From: Candidatus Bathyarchaeota archaeon
GTDB taxonomy: Archaea; Thermoproteota; Bathyarchaeia; TCS64; B23
Length of the DNA stretch: 45,072 nucleotides
Direction: 5' to 3'
NCBI GenBank assembly: GCA_021161045.1
Contig: JAGHBJ010000063.1
Location: 1 to 45,072 of the forward strand
Shown: positions 14,482 to 18,390 of the stretch, one piece after another
Position numbering within the stretch: the first letter of the stretch is position 1
Layout of the letters: each line of letters begins with the position of its first letter
Notes under the pieces: model-generated
Databases searched by the model: none
Seen by the model: the letters and a program-made list of their open reading frames with translations, nothing else
Told to the model about the DNA's origin: nothing
Translations under genes and position numbers: made by a program

Positions 14482-15027
14482 TTCTCTCAGCCTATCCCCA
14501 GCCTTCCGAGGCGGATATATTGGAACACCATCCCTGATAACTGCGAACCTCGTCAACCTATGCCTCCGAATCCGACCCCTATCGATGATGTGTATCACCT
14601 CAACGCCCCTCGCATATAGGTGATCCGATATGATACGCCTATGACAACGCCAATAAAACCTCTCAGAACACATGATGGCCACACACCTCTCAGCGGCAAC
14701 CTCCAGAATCCTCTCAAGGCCCCGCCTAAACTCCTCCGTCAGAGCATAGTCGGCATAGTTCCTGAAGCCTCCACGGCTCCAACCCCTATTGGGCGAAGAT
14801 TCCCCAAGGCTGTATCGCCTATATCCACCGAGGACGTCGCCGAGCCATAGGTAGTCGATGCCCCTCTCCGAGAGGGCCTCCCTGAGATTGTCGCCGTTGA
14901 AGTGGGGATATCTCGAGGAGGTGGGCCAACGCCTAACGTCGACGACGATTTCAATCCCATACTCCTCTAGGAGCTCTAGGAATTCGCTCAGCCCCCTATT
15001 CGAGTGGCCTATGGTGTAGATCCTCAT
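14476..15027 (-). CDS. DUF488 family protein
   Basis: MRIYTIGHSNRGLSEFLELLEEYGIEIVVDVRRWPTSSRYPHF matches the DUF488 N-terminal signature (TIGHS...DVR..P.S). Confidence 0.75.
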   Translation of the reverse strand: MRIYTIGHSNRGLSEFLELLEEYGIEIVVDVRRWPTSSRYPHFNGDNLREALSERGIDYLWLGDVLGGYRRYSLGESSPNRGWSRGGFRNYADYALTEEFRRGLERILEVAAERCVAIMCSERFYWRCHRRIISDHLYARGVEVIHIIDRGRIRRHRLTRFAVIRDGVPIYPPRKAGDRLRES

Positions 15028-15173: not shown

Positions 15174-15251
15174 TGGTAGCGGGGGGTCGATTTGAACGAC
15201 CGACCTTGGGGTTATGAGCCCCACGGGCTAACCTGGCTGCCCCACCCCGCT
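15174..15251 (-). tRNA. tRNA-Met (anticodon CAT), initiator-like, with CCA encoded
   Basis: The minus strand reads AGCGGGG TG GGGC AGCCAGGTTA GCCC G TGGGG CTCATAA CCCCA AGGTC GGTCG TTCAAAT CGACC CCCCGCT ACCA, which folds as a full cloverleaf. The A1:U72 pair and three G:C pairs closing the anticodon stem are archaeal initiator features. Confidence 0.95.
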
Positions 15252-15277
15252 CCAGATTTGTGATGGTTGAACGAGGG

Positions 15278-15287
15278 CTTATAATCC
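15278..15287 (-). promoter_or_regulatory. TATA box (minus strand GGATTATAAG) about 30 nt upstream of the tRNA 5' end
   Basis: The position relative to the mature 5' end (15251) fits archaeal tRNA promoters. Confidence 0.5.
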
Positions 15288-15380
15288 TTTCGTGCATTTT
15301 CCCTTATGAAGAATCTTATCTGCGCTTCGATTATGGAATGGGTGTCCCCCTCATTGTTGAGGGCTACCTCGATATATTGA

Positions 15381-15400
15381 TATATAGAAATTTAAAATAT
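15381..15400 (+). promoter_or_regulatory. AT-rich TATA-like element (TATATAGAAATTTAAAATAT) upstream of the low-GC radical SAM gene
   Basis: TTTAAAATAT at 15391-15400 lies 27-36 nt upstream of ATG 15427. Confidence 0.4.
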
Positions 15401-15426
15401 TACCCCTCCTTAGAGGATAGAGCGTT

Positions 15427-16998
15427 ATGAGGATTGTACTAACATCCGATCAGTCGCTCACATCAACGTTTAGAGATATTCCACTGTTAGACTTCCTCCC
15501 ATGCGCACCCATCGAGAGGGTGCCGAGGATAATCTATAGATTATTGGATTCACAGCTTCCAGAGAAAAATGGACGATTGATATATGCTCCATATGCGATA
15601 AGAAAAGTGGAAGCGGCACTCCTCAATAGTGGATTTAAAAGAGAGGAAATCGTTGTAGCACATCCTAAAAAAATAGAGTGTTTTATCGATGACAAAACAA
15701 CTATTGTTGGAATAAATACAATGGATCCATATGGCTTGGGTCCCGTATCATTGATGTTTACGGATGGTGGAAAATTAACCTCATATTCAAAATATTTTTT
15801 CACAACTCTTGTTAAAAGATTGAATGATTATAGAGAAAGGAAGAATTACAAGTTTAAGATCGTTGTTGGTGGACCTGCTGGATGGCAATTAAAGATGAAG
15901 CAGGATTTAACTGAAAAATTAGGGATAGATCACGTTGTGTCTGGGGAATGTGAGCATGTTATTGGGGATATATTTAGGGATATTGAATCAGGTTCAGTAG
16001 ATAGATTTATAGATATAAAAACTATGCCAAGAATAGATGAGATACCAACAATAGTAAATCCATCATATAAAGGTATGGTTGAAGTTATGAGAGGATGCGG
16101 AAGGGGATGCAAATTCTGTTCACCAAATTTGAGAACTGCAAGATTTTATCCAATAGAGAAAATAATTGAGGAGGTGAATGTTAATGTTAAATCTGGATTG
16201 AGAAGAGCATGGTTGCATAGTGAGGATATTTTTAACTATATGGTTGAGGATAGAAAAAATTTCTATCCAAATGAGGATGCTGTAATTACTCTATTTGAAG
16301 AGACTCTTAAAAGAGTTGAATTTGCAAATCCAACACATGCAACAGTAGCTGGAGCTCTAGCAGCACCTAAAATATTAAAAAGGATTGCCGAATTAAATCA
16401 TGCAAATGCAAATAGGTGGATTGGAGTGCAAGTAGGTTTTGAGACAGCATCATCAGAGTTAATTAAGAAAATAGCGAATAATAAGATGAAGCCGTTCAGC
16501 GCTGAGGAATGGCCATGGGTTTTATTAAATGGAACATACGCATTTAACAAATTTTTCTGGTTCCCAGCATACACAACTATATTAGGGATTCCAGGTGAAA
16601 CAGATGAGGATGAAATTGAAACTGCAAGACTTATAGTGACTATGGAAAAGAGATTAAAGGAAAAATTGGGGGAGAGAGCTCATTTTACAGTTACACCTCT
16701 CGCCTTCGTTCCCATGGGTAGTTTTAAGGAGGCAGACTTCTTCGATATCAATGAAAATCTAACAAGGGGTCGTATATTACATCTCTATTATGCCTGGCGT
16801 CATTTAGCATATGAAGTTGAGCATTCTTTGAATATGGTGATAAAAGACAAATTAACTCTCCTTATGTTCTATCCTTTAGCAAAATTAGGCTCGAAAATCG
16901 TTGTGGATAGTATTAGGAAATTTGCTATTAAAAAGGGAATCAATGTCGATAGGCCCCTTGAACCAATGGACTTGAAGATTTCCAAGATAGAGGTATGA
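15427..16998 (+). CDS. B12-binding-domain-like / radical SAM domain protein (class B rSAM-like), encoded by a low-GC gene
   Basis: The CxxxCxxC motif sits in MRGCGRGCKFCSP at about residue 223. It is preceded by a Rossmann-like N-terminal domain (KIVVGGPAGW) and followed by a GFETAS-type motif. The 523-aa length fits. Sampled lines are 27% GC (15661-15720), 32% (16021-16080) and 38% (16381-16440), against 55-57% in the flanking genes. Confidence 0.85.
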   Translation: MRIVLTSDQSLTSTFRDIPLLDFLPCAPIERVPRIIYRLLDSQLPEKNGRLIYAPYAIRKVEAALLNSGFKREEIVVAHPKKIECFIDDKTTIVGINTMDPYGLGPVSLMFTDGGKLTSYSKYFFTTLVKRLNDYRERKNYKFKIVVGGPAGWQLKMKQDLTEKLGIDHVVSGECEHVIGDIFRDIESGSVDRFIDIKTMPRIDEIPTIVNPSYKGMVEVMRGCGRGCKFCSPNLRTARFYPIEKIIEEVNVNVKSGLRRAWLHSEDIFNYMVEDRKNFYPNEDAVITLFEETLKRVEFANPTHATVAGALAAPKILKRIAELNHANANRWIGVQVGFETASSELIKKIANNKMKPFSAEEWPWVLLNGTYAFNKFFWFPAYTTILGIPGETDEDEIETARLIVTMEKRLKEKLGERAHFTVTPLAFVPMGSFKEADFFDINENLTRGRILHLYYAWRHLAYEVEHSLNMVIKDKLTLLMFYPLAKLGSKIVVDSIRKFAIKKGINVDRPLEPMDLKISKIEV

Positions 16999-17048
16999 AT
17001 CTGAGGGAAGGGTTTTAGCCTCGTCGTTGAGATGTTCTCTGGGCAGGT

Positions 17049-17375
17049 TTGGTGGATCGGGAGGCTAGGGAGATCGCCTTGGAGCGGATACGGATATTGT
17101 TCAGGTTAGCCGATGAGGTCTTCCATCAGAATCCTGAACGTGCTCAGCGTTATGTAGACTTGGCGAGGAGGATCGCTATGAGAGTGCGCATACATCTGCC
17201 GAGGGATCTCCGTCGTCGTATCTGTCGTCGATGTAAGGGCTTCCTCGTTCCAGGTGTTAACTGCCGTGTGAGGATTAGACAGCGTAGAGAGCCTCATGTT
17301 GCCATCACCTGTCTAAGATGTGGAGCTATAATGCGCATACCCCTGAGGAGGAGGGGCGATGGGGAGGGGGCTTAA
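17049..17375 (+). CDS. rnp4: RNase P protein component 4 (Rpp21/Rpr2 family)
   Basis: An N-terminal helical region (ALERIRILFRLADEVF...RAQRYVDLARRIAMRVRIHLP) is followed by the zinc ribbon CRRCKGFLVPGVNCRVR...CLRCG. Confidence 0.85.
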   Translation: MVDREAREIALERIRILFRLADEVFHQNPERAQRYVDLARRIAMRVRIHLPRDLRRRICRRCKGFLVPGVNCRVRIRQRREPHVAITCLRCGAIMRIPLRRRGDGEGA

Positions 17376-18390
17376 ACTCATCAGCATCGGCCTGGCAGAT
17401 GAATACGACCTCAGCCTAAGGGCCATAGAAGAGGCGAGGAGCTGCGACAAGCTCTACGTGGAGCTCTACACCACGAGGCTCTCCACATCGAGGGAACGGC
17501 TTGAAGAAGTGCTCCAGAGACCCCTAACGGAGCTCTCCAGGGGGGATTTAGAGGGGGAGAGGCCTAGGATATTGGATGAGGCATCCCGAAGCCTCATCGG
17601 CCTCCTCATAGGGGGTGATTGCCTCGCCGCGACGACGCATATATCACTGCTACTTGAAGCCAAGAGGCAGGGAATACCGACATGGGTGATCCATGGCTCC
17701 TCCATATTCACAGCCATAGCGGAGACGGGTCTCTCCCTCTATAAATTTGGGAGGATAGTCACACTTCCACTCCCAGAGCGGGGGCCACCTGACACGGTTC
17801 TGGAAGCCCTGGAGGGGAATCTCAGCCTAGGCCTCCACACCCTAATCCTCCTAGATCTAGACGTCGAGAGGGATAGGTGGCTGAGCGTAAGCGAGGGGGT
17901 GAGACTACTCCTAGAGGCTGATCGACCGGAGGTCTTCAACGAGGAGACGCCAGCCATCGGCGTTGCAAGGCTAGGCTGGAGCAACCCCTTGATCAAAGGG
18001 GGTAGAGCCGTGGATCTCCTAGATGTAGACTTCGGCGACCCCCCGCAGGCGTTGATAATTCCTGGACGCCTCCACTTCATGGAGGAGGAGGGATTGAGGC
18101 TTTTGGCCGACTGTCCAGGGGAAGCCTTAAAGGGGTGGAGGCCGAGGGGTGAACCCGAACATCTGGTGGAGAGATATATGAAATCCTGTAGAGGGGTGAT
18201 GGAGAAGTTGAGGGATAAACCCCTAAGCGAGGAGGCTAGGAGAATATTAGATTATGCCGCGAGGTATCTGAGTGACGCCGAATACTACGCTGGTGAGGGG
18301 AGATGGCCTACGGCGTTGGCAGCCATCTCATATTGCGAGGGCCTACTCGACGCCTTGAGGCTGCTAGGCCTAGTAGAGTTTGAGTGGTGA
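17359..18390 (+). CDS. dphB: Diphthine synthase (Dph5/DphB) with a C-terminal helical extension of about 85 aa
   Basis: LKLISIGLADEYDLSLRAIEEARSCDKLYVELYT and IIPGRLHFMEEE match the tetrapyrrole-methylase-fold diphthine synthase, which is normally about 260 aa. Residues from about 258 to 343 are extra. Confidence 0.85.
   Translation: MGRGLKLISIGLADEYDLSLRAIEEARSCDKLYVELYTTRLSTSRERLEEVLQRPLTELSRGDLEGERPRILDEASRSLIGLLIGGDCLAATTHISLLLEAKRQGIPTWVIHGSSIFTAIAETGLSLYKFGRIVTLPLPERGPPDTVLEALEGNLSLGLHTLILLDLDVERDRWLSVSEGVRLLLEADRPEVFNEETPAIGVARLGWSNPLIKGGRAVDLLDVDFGDPPQALIIPGRLHFMEEEGLRLLADCPGEALKGWRPRGEPEHLVERYMKSCRGVMEKLRDKPLSEEARRILDYAARYLSDAEYYAGEGRWPTALAAISYCEGLLDALRLLGLVEFEW

What the first reader, a model, noticed from the sequence alone, without database searches (positions are those of the whole stretch)
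15252..17010. Sharp low-GC island carrying a single B12-domain radical SAM gene beside the initiator-like tRNA-Met
Counted 60-nt lines inside the gene are 27% GC (15661-15720), 32% (16021-16080), 37% (15541-15600) and 38% (16381-16440). Flanking genes are 55% (14701-14760) and 57% (17401-17460). Composition returns to the host level within a few bases of the stop codon at 16998.

Codon usage is dominated by AAA/ATA/TTA/GAT-type codons that are rare elsewhere in the window. The island has its own very AT-rich promoter (15381-15400) and abuts a tRNA gene, a classic landing site for foreign DNA. No integrase, att duplication or other cargo is visible.

The product is a 523-aa class-B-like radical SAM protein (CGRGCKFC). 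This enzyme class includes archaeal lipid-tailoring enzymes (tetraether synthase, ring synthases) and many orphan methanococcal-type families. The pattern suggests a recent horizontal acquisition or allelic replacement from a low-GC archaeon or mobile element.
Basis: partly seen in the sequence, partly recalled or inferred. Interest (0 to 1): 0.7.

Follow-up and report, generated by a model that had tools for sequence, protein, structure and literature searches.

The report
Foreign radical-SAM gene cassette, still spreading
A 1.7-kb low-GC piece of foreign DNA carrying one radical SAM enzyme gene with its own promoter has been inserted between the initiator tRNA gene and an RNase P subunit gene of a sediment archaeon (Bathyarchaeia). 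Some close relatives carry it and others do not, so it is a clean but ordinary case of recent gene transfer, and the enzyme's function is unknown.

Summary
The 523-aa gene (15427-16998) has 36% GC and GC3 0.30, against 57% GC and GC3 0.70±0.05 in the 49 other ORFs (z = -8).

It is an insertion of 1713 bp (15292-17004), made up of 135 bp of upstream DNA, the ORF, and 6 bp after the stop codon. It sits in a 5-bp gap between the back-to-back putative promoters of initiator tRNA-Met and rnp4.

- **Empty sites exist.** Relatives with almost identical flanks lack the insert, as do more than 20 more distant Bathyarchaeia. Both forms occur in the same public metagenomes, so this is not a misassembly.
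- **The protein is foreign.** It groups with low-GC Thermoplasmata/DHVE2/Aenigmatarchaeota-type copies (70-77% identity; bootstrap 100/100), not with native-GC Bathyarchaeia copies (48%).
- **The insert is younger than its flanks.** Synonymous divergence is 0.11 against 0.4-0.75 between host clades, and 0.009 against 0.05-0.11 within one clade. It is therefore still spreading, probably by homologous recombination anchored in the invariant tRNA gene.
- **No mobility features.** I found no integrase, att repeat or viral/plasmid copy.
- **The gene is functional.** dN/dS is 0.14.

The fold resembles cobalamin-type radical SAM enzymes (MgmA, TsrM). The protein belongs to no characterised family, so its substrate is unknown.

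The parts
15174..15251 (-). Initiator-type tRNA-Met(CAT), native. It is 100% identical in all related loci aligned (A3) and is the proposed left homology anchor for recombination.
   Evidence: ARAGORN. A1:U72 pair and GGGG/CCCC anticodon stem. Invariant in alignment A3.
15252..15291 (.). Native spacer holding the putative tRNA promoter (TTATAA at 15279-15284, read on the minus strand, about 31 nt upstream of the tRNA 5' end). Identical in all island-bearing genomes of both host clades; 1-3 SNPs in genomes with empty sites.
   Evidence: Alignment A3. The promoter assignment is inference from position and sequence.
15292..17004 (+). The inserted foreign cassette: 1713 bp (boundaries ±3 bp), 36.7% GC.
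   Evidence: Alignments with empty sites in L083, L084 and L085. Public-run contigs that skip exactly 15292-17004 and carry TTCGT or CTCGT instead. GC.
15292..15426 (+). The cassette's own upstream region. The AT-rich stretch 15381-15400 has 5% GC. A TATA-like TTTAAAATA at 15391-15399 is centred about 32 nt before the ATG, which suggests a leaderless or near-leaderless mRNA.
   Evidence: Sequence. TTTAAAATA is conserved in the island copies of L001 and L086, although the region is only 88% identical overall. Function is inferred.
15427..16998 (+). 523-aa radical SAM protein: an N-terminal Rossmann-like domain (B12-binding-like), a radical SAM barrel and a C-terminal helical domain. It is under purifying selection.
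   Evidence: ORF. Pfam PF04055, 40.5 bits against a cut-off of 29.5. AlphaFold model, pLDDT 93.7. Foldseek. dN/dS 0.016/0.112.
16096..16119 (+). Codons for CGRGCKFC (C224, C228, C231), the CX3CX2C site for the radical SAM [4Fe-4S] cluster.
   Evidence: Translation. These three Cys and C26 are the only invariant Cys among 81 homologues.
17005..17048 (+). Native region upstream of rnp4 (GGGAAGGG then TTTTAG at 17013-17018, about 33 nt before the start codon). Clade-specific SNPs resume 14 bp after the junction.
   Evidence: Alignment A4. The promoter assignment is inferred.
17049..17375 (+). rnp4 (RNase P subunit Rpr2/Rpp21), native. It lies directly next to the tRNA in all genomes with empty sites.
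   Evidence: Pfam PF04032. Synteny in more than 20 loci.

Best explanation
Window 15292-17004 is a horizontally acquired single-gene cassette (promoter plus ORF) in a Bathyarchaeia genome of about 57% GC.

Shown
- It is an insertion into the 5-bp gap between the divergent tRNA-Met(initiator) and rnp4 genes.
- It is present in some genomes and absent in others among very close relatives, and both forms occur in the same sediment samples.
- Its protein belongs to the Thermoplasmata/DHVE2/Aenigmatarchaeota-type branch of a conserved archaeal radical SAM family. Members of that branch normally sit in genomes of 30-45% GC.
- Its synonymous divergence between carriers is 4-10 times lower than that of the adjacent genes.
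- It evolves under purifying selection.

Inferred
- After a first illegitimate insertion from a low-GC donor, the cassette has been passing between already diverged Bathyarchaeia lineages by homologous recombination. The left crossover would lie in the invariant tRNA gene and spacer (118 bp). The right crossover would lie in, or have been later trimmed back to, the conserved rnp4 upstream element.
- The position is tolerated because the putative promoters on both sides stay intact.
- The cassette is transcribed from its own TATA box.

Enzyme (inferred from fold and motifs)
- One [4Fe-4S]/SAM site cleaves SAM to a 5'-deoxyadenosyl radical.
- A cobalamin-type N-terminal domain suggests methylation or another radical transformation at an unactivated carbon.
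- The substrate is unknown. My guess is a lipid, or an RNA or protein modification common to many anaerobic archaea.
- In this host the gene is accessory.
For: Composition
- GC3 0.30 against 0.70±0.05; GC1 is also shifted.
- Tetranucleotide distance 0.75 against 0.22±0.02.
- In about 55 other genomes the homologue's GC follows the host's, mostly to within ±0.07. The exceptions are this window (-0.20), L005 (-0.19), and L017, L019 and L070 (+0.10 to +0.13).

Empty sites
- L083 has flanks 94-96% identical to the window and no insert. L084, L085, L119 and L120 also lack it. Every relative at 52-60% Dph5 identity whose contig reaches the tRNA has it 150-230 bp from rnp4.
- Contigs of public runs X2 and X5 skip exactly 1713 bp. 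Contigs of X1, X3 and X5 span the occupied junctions. In X5 the empty form has depth 43 and the island depth 11.

Phylogeny
- In a neighbour-joining tree the island proteins fall inside the Thermoplasmata/DHVE2/Aenigmatarchaeota-type clade in 100 of 100 bootstraps. Identity to native-GC Bathyarchaeia copies is 48%.
- Low-GC contigs carry copies at 76-77% identity: L118 (gene 36.7%, flanks 32% GC) and L116 (42%, 39%).

Age
- dS of the island is 0.11 against 0.38-0.75 for rnp4, dph5, ribL and rtcB between clades A and B. Within clade B it is 0.009 against 0.05-0.11.
- The non-coding upstream region of the island is 88% identical between clades.

Hitch-hiking
- The 42-bp spacer between tRNA and junction is identical in occupied genomes of both clades but differs in genomes with empty sites.
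- The two clades are not syntenic to the left of the tRNA.

Host
- All named homologues of the flanking Dph5 are Bathyarchaeota/Bathyarchaeia. Of four named cluster mates of the island protein at ≥90% identity, three are labelled Bathyarchaeota; the fourth sequence is deposited under both a Bathyarchaeota and a Thaumarchaeota label.

Enzyme
- Pfam Radical_SAM, dN/dS 0.14, confident model.
- Best fold matches are MgmA (9ccb), MiaB, TsrM, AprD4 and CysS.
- Metatranscriptome contigs cover parts of the island at depths similar to the flanks.
Against: - No donor closer than 77% protein identity was found, so the source lineage is unsampled.
- The right-hand homology available for recombination is only about 14-18 bp. 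That is short unless co-transferred flank was later erased.
- Polarised substitutions show no clear drift towards host GC (AT>GC 27, GC>AT 21). This fits a recent arrival but does not prove it.
- The island protein and the L005 island protein are sisters (bootstrap 92/100). Both stay low-GC in high-GC hosts at 77% identity, which a single recent transfer does not by itself explain.
- The RNA evidence comes from assembled contigs that can include DNA.
- Cobalamin binding and the substrate are untested. This copy does not match Pfam B12-binding.
Confidence: 0.85

Rival explanations
1. Independent site-specific insertions. The same cassette entered the same 5-bp site separately in clade A and clade B from a shared reservoir (for example an unsampled low-GC plasmid, virus or donor species) by an unknown targeting mechanism, rather than passing between Bathyarchaeia by homologous recombination.
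For: - Clade-specific SNPs resume only 14 bp to the right of the junction, so little co-transferred flank is visible.
- The junctions are identical to the base in both clades.
- A sister low-GC island sits at a different locus in another Bathyarchaeia genome, L005, which suggests a reservoir that seeds this class repeatedly.
Against: - No integrase, terminal inverted repeat, target duplication or att repeat.
- No homologue on IMG/VR contigs, phage records or plasmid records.
- The 42-bp native spacer to the left of the insert is identical in carriers of both clades but polymorphic in genomes with empty sites. That pattern is expected from co-transfer by recombination.
Confidence: 0.2
2. Ancestral presence with repeated precise loss. 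The gene was at this site in the common ancestor of the clade, and the empty sites are deletions.
For: Presence and absence are mixed within both clades.
Against: - Island dS between clades (0.11) is far below flank dS (0.38-0.75).
- All more distant relatives whose contigs reach the tRNA have it directly next to rnp4.
- L083 and L084 share the filler TTCGT and L085 has CTCGT, all in the same register. Independent deletions would not produce this.
- The gene's composition and phylogeny are foreign.
Confidence: 0.03
3. Assembly chimera. A read-level misjoin placed a low-GC organism's gene into a Bathyarchaeia contig.
For: Composition changes abruptly, and the tRNA region is a high-depth repeat where assemblies tend to break (depth 393-840 in X1, X2 and X5).
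Against: - The same two junctions occur in the window and in three further contigs. L001 (ENA ERZ23491052) and L082 (ENA ERZ2433807) come from separate ENA assemblies, and L086 is a JGI contig. Their flanks differ from the window's by about 13%.
- A single 3911-bp contig of run X3 spans 15174-17500.
- The island copies have diverged in step with their carriers: 96% between clades, 99.6-99.8% within clade B.
Confidence: 0.01
4. Allelic (xenologous) replacement. The foreign gene replaced a native orthologue at the same locus by recombination within the gene.
For: GC3 is higher at the ends of the ORF (codons 1-40: 0.53; last 43 codons: 0.42) than in the middle (0.27). A mosaic could produce this.
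Against: - Empty sites contain no gene, only 5 bp.
- No relative has any family member at this locus.
- The N-terminal 40 residues match the Thermoplasmata-type homologues.
Confidence: 0.03

Closest known systems
Horizontally acquired genomic islets (single-gene compositional islands, strain-variable 'flexible genome' loci next to tRNA genes)
   Same: Deviant GC, codon use and tetranucleotides; a phylogeny that conflicts with the host's; presence/absence polymorphism among close relatives; position beside a tRNA gene.
   Different: No integrase, att repeat or other cargo. The insert is on the 5' (promoter) side of the tRNA. It is trimmed to promoter plus ORF plus 6 bp. It appears to spread by recombination between lineages whose flanks are about 13% diverged.
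Cobalamin-dependent (class B) radical SAM enzymes with solved structures: MgmA (9ccb), TsrM (6wte), CysS (9n1d). Also AprD4 (6fd2), which has the same domain layout.
   Same: Predicted architecture of an N-terminal Rossmann-like domain, a radical SAM barrel and a C-terminal domain. Foldseek E 3e-17 to 7e-10, TM about 0.5. CX3CX2C motif.
   Different: Only 12-16% identity. This copy does not match Pfam B12-binding. NCBIfam scores are far below every cut-off, for example TIGR04014 (MgmA) at 28 against 360. The family occurs in many non-methanogens, so the substrate must differ.
MiaB/RimO methylthiotransferases
   Same: Best sequence match in the PDB (7mjv, E 8e-10 with the family profile), covering the end of the N-terminal domain and the start of the core. 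Similar fold.
   Different: Only one invariant Cys (C26) in the N-terminal domain instead of the three that hold the auxiliary cluster. No TRAM domain. TIGR00089 scores 51 against 251.
Archaeal tetraether-lipid radical SAM enzymes (Tes/GDGT-MAS, GrsA/B, Gms, Gmm, Ted)
   Same: Radical SAM proteins of about 500 aa, widespread in anaerobic and thermophilic archaea including Guaymas Bathyarchaeota (PMC11214058; bioRxiv 10.1101/2025.10.20.683597).
   Different: - Gms is AhbD-like, with SPASM/Twitch and an N-terminal COG4001 extension (PMC11214058). Nothing of the kind is detected here.
- Tes carries additional auxiliary Fe-S clusters (PMC11186832). Here there are no further conserved Cys and no PDB match to it.
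- Gmm and Ted are MoeK5-like B12 enzymes whose genes cluster with gms or grs. I saw no such clustering in the three native neighbourhoods I examined.
- I could not compare directly with Grs, Gmm or Ted sequences.

Membership tests
Radical SAM superfamily | CX3CX2C motif binding the [4Fe-4S] cluster | tested here: met
   C224-x3-C228-x2-C231 (CGRGCKFC), invariant in 81 homologues.
Radical SAM superfamily | Match to Pfam PF04055 above the gathering score; partial TIM-barrel core | tested here: met
   40.5 bits against a cut-off of 29.5. Model with pLDDT 93.7 whose core superposes on radical SAM structures.
Class B (cobalamin-dependent) radical SAM | N-terminal B12-binding Rossmann domain recognisable by sequence (PF02310) | tested here: inconclusive
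   No hit in the window's protein at E ≤ 0.1. Weak hits in 12 of 26 family members, best E 1.8e-5.
Class B (cobalamin-dependent) radical SAM | Overall fold like solved class B enzymes | tested here: met
   Foldseek: MgmA 9ccb E 3.4e-17, TsrM 6wte 1e-11, CysS 9n1d 7e-10, with TM about 0.5. MiaB and the cobalamin-free AprD4 score similarly.
Class B (cobalamin-dependent) radical SAM | Binds cobalamin | not testable with these tools
   Needs purified protein.
MiaB/RimO/MtaB methylthiotransferases | Three conserved N-terminal Cys for the auxiliary cluster, a C-terminal TRAM domain, and a score above the family cut-off | tested here: not met
   Only C26 is invariant in the N-terminal domain. No TRAM hit. 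TIGR00089 scores 51.2 against 251.
TIGR04013 (MJ_1487-type B12/radical SAM) and TIGR04014 (MgmA) | NCBIfam score above the curated cut-off | tested here: not met
   52.5 against 251, and 28.4 against 360.
Tes / GDGT-MAS (tetraether synthase) | Sequence relation to the solved enzyme; extra Cys ligands for auxiliary clusters | tested here: not met
   Neither the protein nor the family profile matches it in the PDB at E ≤ 0.01. No further conserved Cys.
Gms (GMGT synthase) | AhbD-like SPASM/Twitch radical SAM with an N-terminal COG4001 extension (PMC11214058) | tested here: not met
   No SPASM, Fer4_12 or AhbD-type hit in Pfam or NCBIfam. The domain order is different.
GrsA/B, Gmm, Ted (B12 radical SAM lipid modifiers) | Orthology to the characterised proteins; clustering with tes, gms or grs | tested here: inconclusive
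   The characterised Grs, Gmm and Ted sequences were not on hand. TIGR04072 ('lipid biosynthesis B12/rSAM') scores 28.9 against 360. No lipid genes lie next to the native copies in Pyrococcus, Methanocaldococcus or a Nitrososphaerota MAG.
Integrase-mediated tRNA-targeted genomic island | Integrase gene, direct att repeats duplicating part of the tRNA, insertion at the tRNA 3' end | tested here: not met
   The insert holds one ORF only. No boundary repeats. The insert is 40 bp from the tRNA 5' end.
Horizontally acquired islet | Deviant composition, phylogenetic incongruence, and presence/absence among close relatives | tested here: met
   composition; tree; empty sites.
Anti-phage defence gene or viral gene | Match to PADLOC or PHROGs models, or presence on viral or plasmid records | tested here: not met
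   No hits.

The most novel reading that the evidence does not exclude
The cassette is one visible copy of a minimal 'promoter plus gene' unit for an uncharacterised, very conserved archaeal radical SAM enzyme. It circulates among unrelated archaeal phyla in hydrothermal sediments without any mobility genes. It keeps its low GC because it is repeatedly re-seeded from an unsampled low-GC reservoir (a DPANN- or Thermoplasmata-type lineage, or an unknown plasmid or virus). It spreads within Bathyarchaeia as an ongoing gene-specific sweep, because the enzyme confers a selectable change to the membrane or to RNA.
Probability: 0.2. Interest if true: 0.65.

Novelty: new member of a known kind. Interest (0 to 1): 0.42.

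Why it matters
The site gives base-pair-resolved occupied and empty alleles, in two host clades and within single samples, for an inter-phylum gene transfer into uncultured Bathyarchaeia. The insert is 4-10 times younger than its flanks, which shows gene flow by recombination between archaeal lineages about 13% diverged. That bears on how species boundaries and flexible genomes work in uncultured sediment archaea.

It also flags a radical SAM family that is 45-77% identical across archaeal phyla. No curated NCBIfam model claims it, its best structural relatives are only 12-16% identical, and I found no characterised member. The family is evidently worth acquiring, which makes it a reasonable target for functional work in Thermococcus or Pyrococcus, where native orthologues exist.

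Tried and rejected
- GMGT synthase (Gms). I suspected this from the taxonomic spread. Gms is AhbD/SPASM-like, so I rejected it.
- Tes/GDGT-MAS. No PDB match and no auxiliary-cluster Cys.
- RaSEA (archaeosine). NCBIfam returned no RaSEA or archaeosine family among its hits, and all ten hits fall far below their cut-offs. The paper I read gave no sequence details.
- Mobile-element vectors. IMG/VR scan, phage tblastn, plasmid tblastn, PHROGs and PADLOC all came back empty.
- Boundary repeats, att sites and terminal inverted repeats. I found only chance-level repeats.
- Donor upstream region. The 135-bp leader matches nothing except the other island copies.
- Drift towards host GC. Polarised substitutions are too few and too balanced to say anything.
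- Gene neighbourhood for function. I saw no conserved neighbours in the three native contexts examined.
- First bootstrap script. It timed out, so I rewrote it.
- Library of 50%-identity representatives. It showed only that the family is compact, with 157 clusters at E ≤ 1e-30.
- Native paralogue elsewhere in the host genome.
Full report
**1. The observation**

The trough is real and unique in the window. At 1-kb resolution, GC falls to 0.355 only around 15.5-17 kb; elsewhere it is 0.50-0.61. At 200-bp resolution it drops from about 0.50-0.58 to 0.32-0.40 and returns to 0.53 by 17000-17199.

The gene at 15427-16998 (523 aa) has GC3 0.30. The 49 other ORFs of at least 100 aa have 0.70±0.048 (z = -8.3). 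GC1 is also lower (0.44 against about 0.58), and the protein is richer in K, N, F and I. So the protein itself evolved in an AT-rich genome.

The tetranucleotide distance to the rest of the window is 0.75, against 0.22±0.02 for other windows of equal size. AAA, TTA, AAT, TTT, ATT and GAA are 4-9 times more frequent per 1000 codons than in the host. ATA and GAT are enriched but not rare in the host.

The tRNA at 15174-15251 (-) is an initiator-type tRNA-Met, with an A1:U72 pair and a GGGG/CCCC anticodon stem.

**2. Insertion with exact boundaries**

I scanned metagenome contigs with the neighbouring Dph5 protein. This returned 30 related loci, which I screened for the flanking genes and the tRNA.

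- L083 shares AmmeMemoRadiSam, DUF488, tRNA-Met, rnp4, dph5, ribL, ribK and rtcB with the window at 95-99% protein identity, yet has no radical SAM gene.
- L084 and L085 also lack it. So do L119 (on a 735-kb contig) and L120.
- About 15 contigs at 52-60% Dph5 identity have the tRNA 150-230 bp from rnp4.
- L086, L001 and L082 carry the gene.

Alignments of occupied and empty sites put the insert at 15292-17004. The empty sequence reads CCTTTC-TTCGT-GGGAAGGGTTTTAGCC. The occupied one reads CCTTTC-[1713 bp]-GGGAAGGG.

Assembled contigs of public runs show the same thing independently. X2 and X5 contain contigs that skip exactly 15292-17004 and carry CTCGT or TTCGT instead. X1, X3 and X5 contain contigs that cross the occupied junctions, and one 3911-bp contig of X3 covers 15174-17500. 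In X5 the empty form has depth 43 and the island depth 11. This excludes a chimera and shows that both alleles coexist in one sample.

The insert consists of 135 bp of upstream DNA, the ORF, and 6 bp after the stop codon. It has no terminal repeats, no duplication of tRNA sequence and no second ORF.

It lies between two back-to-back putative promoters.
- TTATAA at 15279-15284 is about 31 nt upstream of the tRNA on the minus strand.
- TTTTAG at 17013-17018 is about 33 nt before the rnp4 start.

Both are retained. These promoter assignments are inference from sequence and spacing. The cassette has its own TTTAAAATA at 15391-15399, about 32 nt before the ATG, conserved in the other island copies.

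**3. Foreign origin**

The host is Bathyarchaeia. All named Dph5 homologues carry that label. Of four named cluster mates of the island protein at ≥90% identity, three are labelled Bathyarchaeota; the fourth sequence is deposited under both a Bathyarchaeota and a Thaumarchaeota label.

The protein family is large and very conserved in archaea. Among 57 homologue-bearing loci from species-representative genomes, the gene's GC follows the flanks, mostly to within ±0.07. Besides the window (-0.20), the exceptions are L005 (-0.19) and L017, L019 and L070 (+0.10 to +0.13).

The window's protein is 70-77% identical to copies in Thermoplasmata, DHVE2, Aenigmatarchaeota and Syntropharchaeia. It is only 48% identical to the native-GC copies of other Bathyarchaeia. 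In a neighbour-joining tree it falls inside the former group in 100 of 100 bootstraps.

Low-GC contigs carry copies at 76-77% identity with matching composition. L118 has a gene at 36.7% GC and flanks at 32%. No closer donor was found.

**4. The insert is younger than its surroundings**

Right-flank nucleotide identity defines two host clades.
- Clade A: the window and L083, 95.7% identical.
- Clade B: L085, L086, L001 and L082, 96.7-99.3% identical.

Between the clades the flanks are 86.5% identical, but the island is 95.9% identical.

| Comparison | Island dS | Flank dS |
|---|---|---|
| Clade A vs clade B | 0.11 | 0.38-0.75 |
| Within clade B (L086 vs L001) | 0.009 | 0.05-0.11 |

The non-coding leader of the island differs by 12% between the clades, in line with its dS.

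So the island reached these genomes after they had diverged, and a single ancestral insertion followed by losses is excluded.

The 42-bp native spacer between the tRNA and the left junction is identical in carriers of both clades. It differs by 1-3 SNPs in genomes with empty sites. To the left of the tRNA the clades are not homologous. To the right, clade-specific SNPs resume 14 bp after the junction.

The simplest reading is transfer between Bathyarchaeia lineages by homologous recombination. One crossover would lie in the invariant tRNA plus spacer (118 bp). The other would lie in, or have been later eroded back to, the conserved rnp4 upstream element. I rate this at about 0.6. The alternative, repeated site-specific insertion from a common reservoir, is not excluded.

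**5. The gene is functional**

dN/dS between the clades is 0.14. Metatranscriptome contigs from one sediment sample cover parts of the island at depths similar to the neighbouring genes. This is weak evidence, because such contigs can contain DNA.

**6. The enzyme**

- Pfam finds only Radical_SAM.
- Every NCBIfam hit is far below its cut-off. The best is TIGR04013 at 52 against 251.
- The PDB sequence search finds only MiaB/RimO and 9ccb, weakly.
- A confident model (pLDDT 93.7) matches MgmA (9ccb), MiaB, TsrM, AprD4 and CysS at TM about 0.5 and 12-16% identity. The layout is a Rossmann-like N-terminal domain, a radical SAM barrel and a helical C-terminal domain.
- The B12-binding Pfam model matches 12 of 26 homologues weakly and does not match this copy.
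- Only C26 and the CX3CX2C cysteines are invariant. That argues against auxiliary clusters, and so against methylthiotransferase, Tes or SPASM chemistry.
- Gms is AhbD-like (PMC11214058). Gmm and Ted are MoeK5-like and cluster with lipid genes (bioRxiv 10.1101/2025.10.20.683597). I saw no such neighbours in the native contexts I examined.

My best inference is a class-B-like radical SAM enzyme that methylates or otherwise transforms an unactivated carbon on an unknown substrate.

**7. Verdict**

It is an insertion rather than an allelic replacement. The tRNA probably matters as a conserved recombination anchor and as a variable hotspot, not as an integrase target. The case is a well-resolved example of a known phenomenon. 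What remains open is the donor, the means of first entry, and what this conserved enzyme does.

Noticed in passing
L005:5720-7560 (Bathyarchaeia MAG contig CAZKUI010000026): A second single-gene low-GC island (39.5% against 58% GC) carries the sister protein (77% identity; bootstrap 92/100). It lies in a completely different intergenic site, with no tRNA, in a distantly related Bathyarchaeia genome.
   Followed up: partly
L085:3600-5400 (and 2100-2700): In a clade B genome whose tRNA/rnp4 site is empty, the other (3') side of the same initiator tRNA carries a different low-GC gene (about 41% GC). It encodes a 476-aa beta-helix/NosD-like protein. A low-GC BsuPI-like inhibitor gene lies nearby, next to a subtilase gene. 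The tRNA locus is therefore a hotspot with different cargo in different strains.
   Followed up: partly
window:15172 and the equivalent point in L001, L084, L085, L086, L119, L120: Synteny breaks exactly at the 3' end of the tRNA. At least five different left-hand contexts occur among relatives whose right-hand side (rnp4, dph5, ribL, ribK, rtcB) is conserved.
   Followed up: partly
window:15174-20996 and L083-L112: The order initiator tRNA-Met, rnp4, dph5 (fused to a DUF357 domain), ribL, ribK, rtcB is conserved across Bathyarchaeia-like contigs from 38% to 66% GC.
   Followed up: partly
window:15427-15546 and 16867-16995: GC3 at the two ends of the foreign ORF (0.53 in codons 1-40; 0.42 in the last 43) is higher than in the middle (0.27). 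Two low-GC native carriers (L002, L014) show no such rise at either end; L118 shows a smaller one at the 5' end only (0.42 against 0.33). The cause is unexplained; it could be partial drift towards host GC, gene conversion or an older mosaic.
   Followed up: partly
L017:168-1721 and L019:108-1652 (Thermococci MAG contigs): This is the reverse case. Here the homologue is 12-13 points higher in GC than the rest of its contig. Both genes sit at contig ends, so either transfer or a binning or assembly artefact is possible.
   Followed up: no
L115:6966-9158 (Nitrososphaerota MAG): The family member there lies directly next to a Phage_integr_3 integrase gene, a ParB_N gene and several small ORFs without Pfam hits. 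These may form an integrated element beside the gene.
   Followed up: no
L001:1951-2250: A short, very AT-rich intergenic stretch (25.7% GC) lies between the MFS transporter and TrmB genes in the clade B relative.
   Followed up: no
window:15164-15254: Contig depth over the tRNA is 393-840 in three of the four public DNA runs, against 11-25 in the adjacent island. This tRNA sequence is therefore shared by many genomes in these samples, which also explains why assemblies break there.
   Followed up: no
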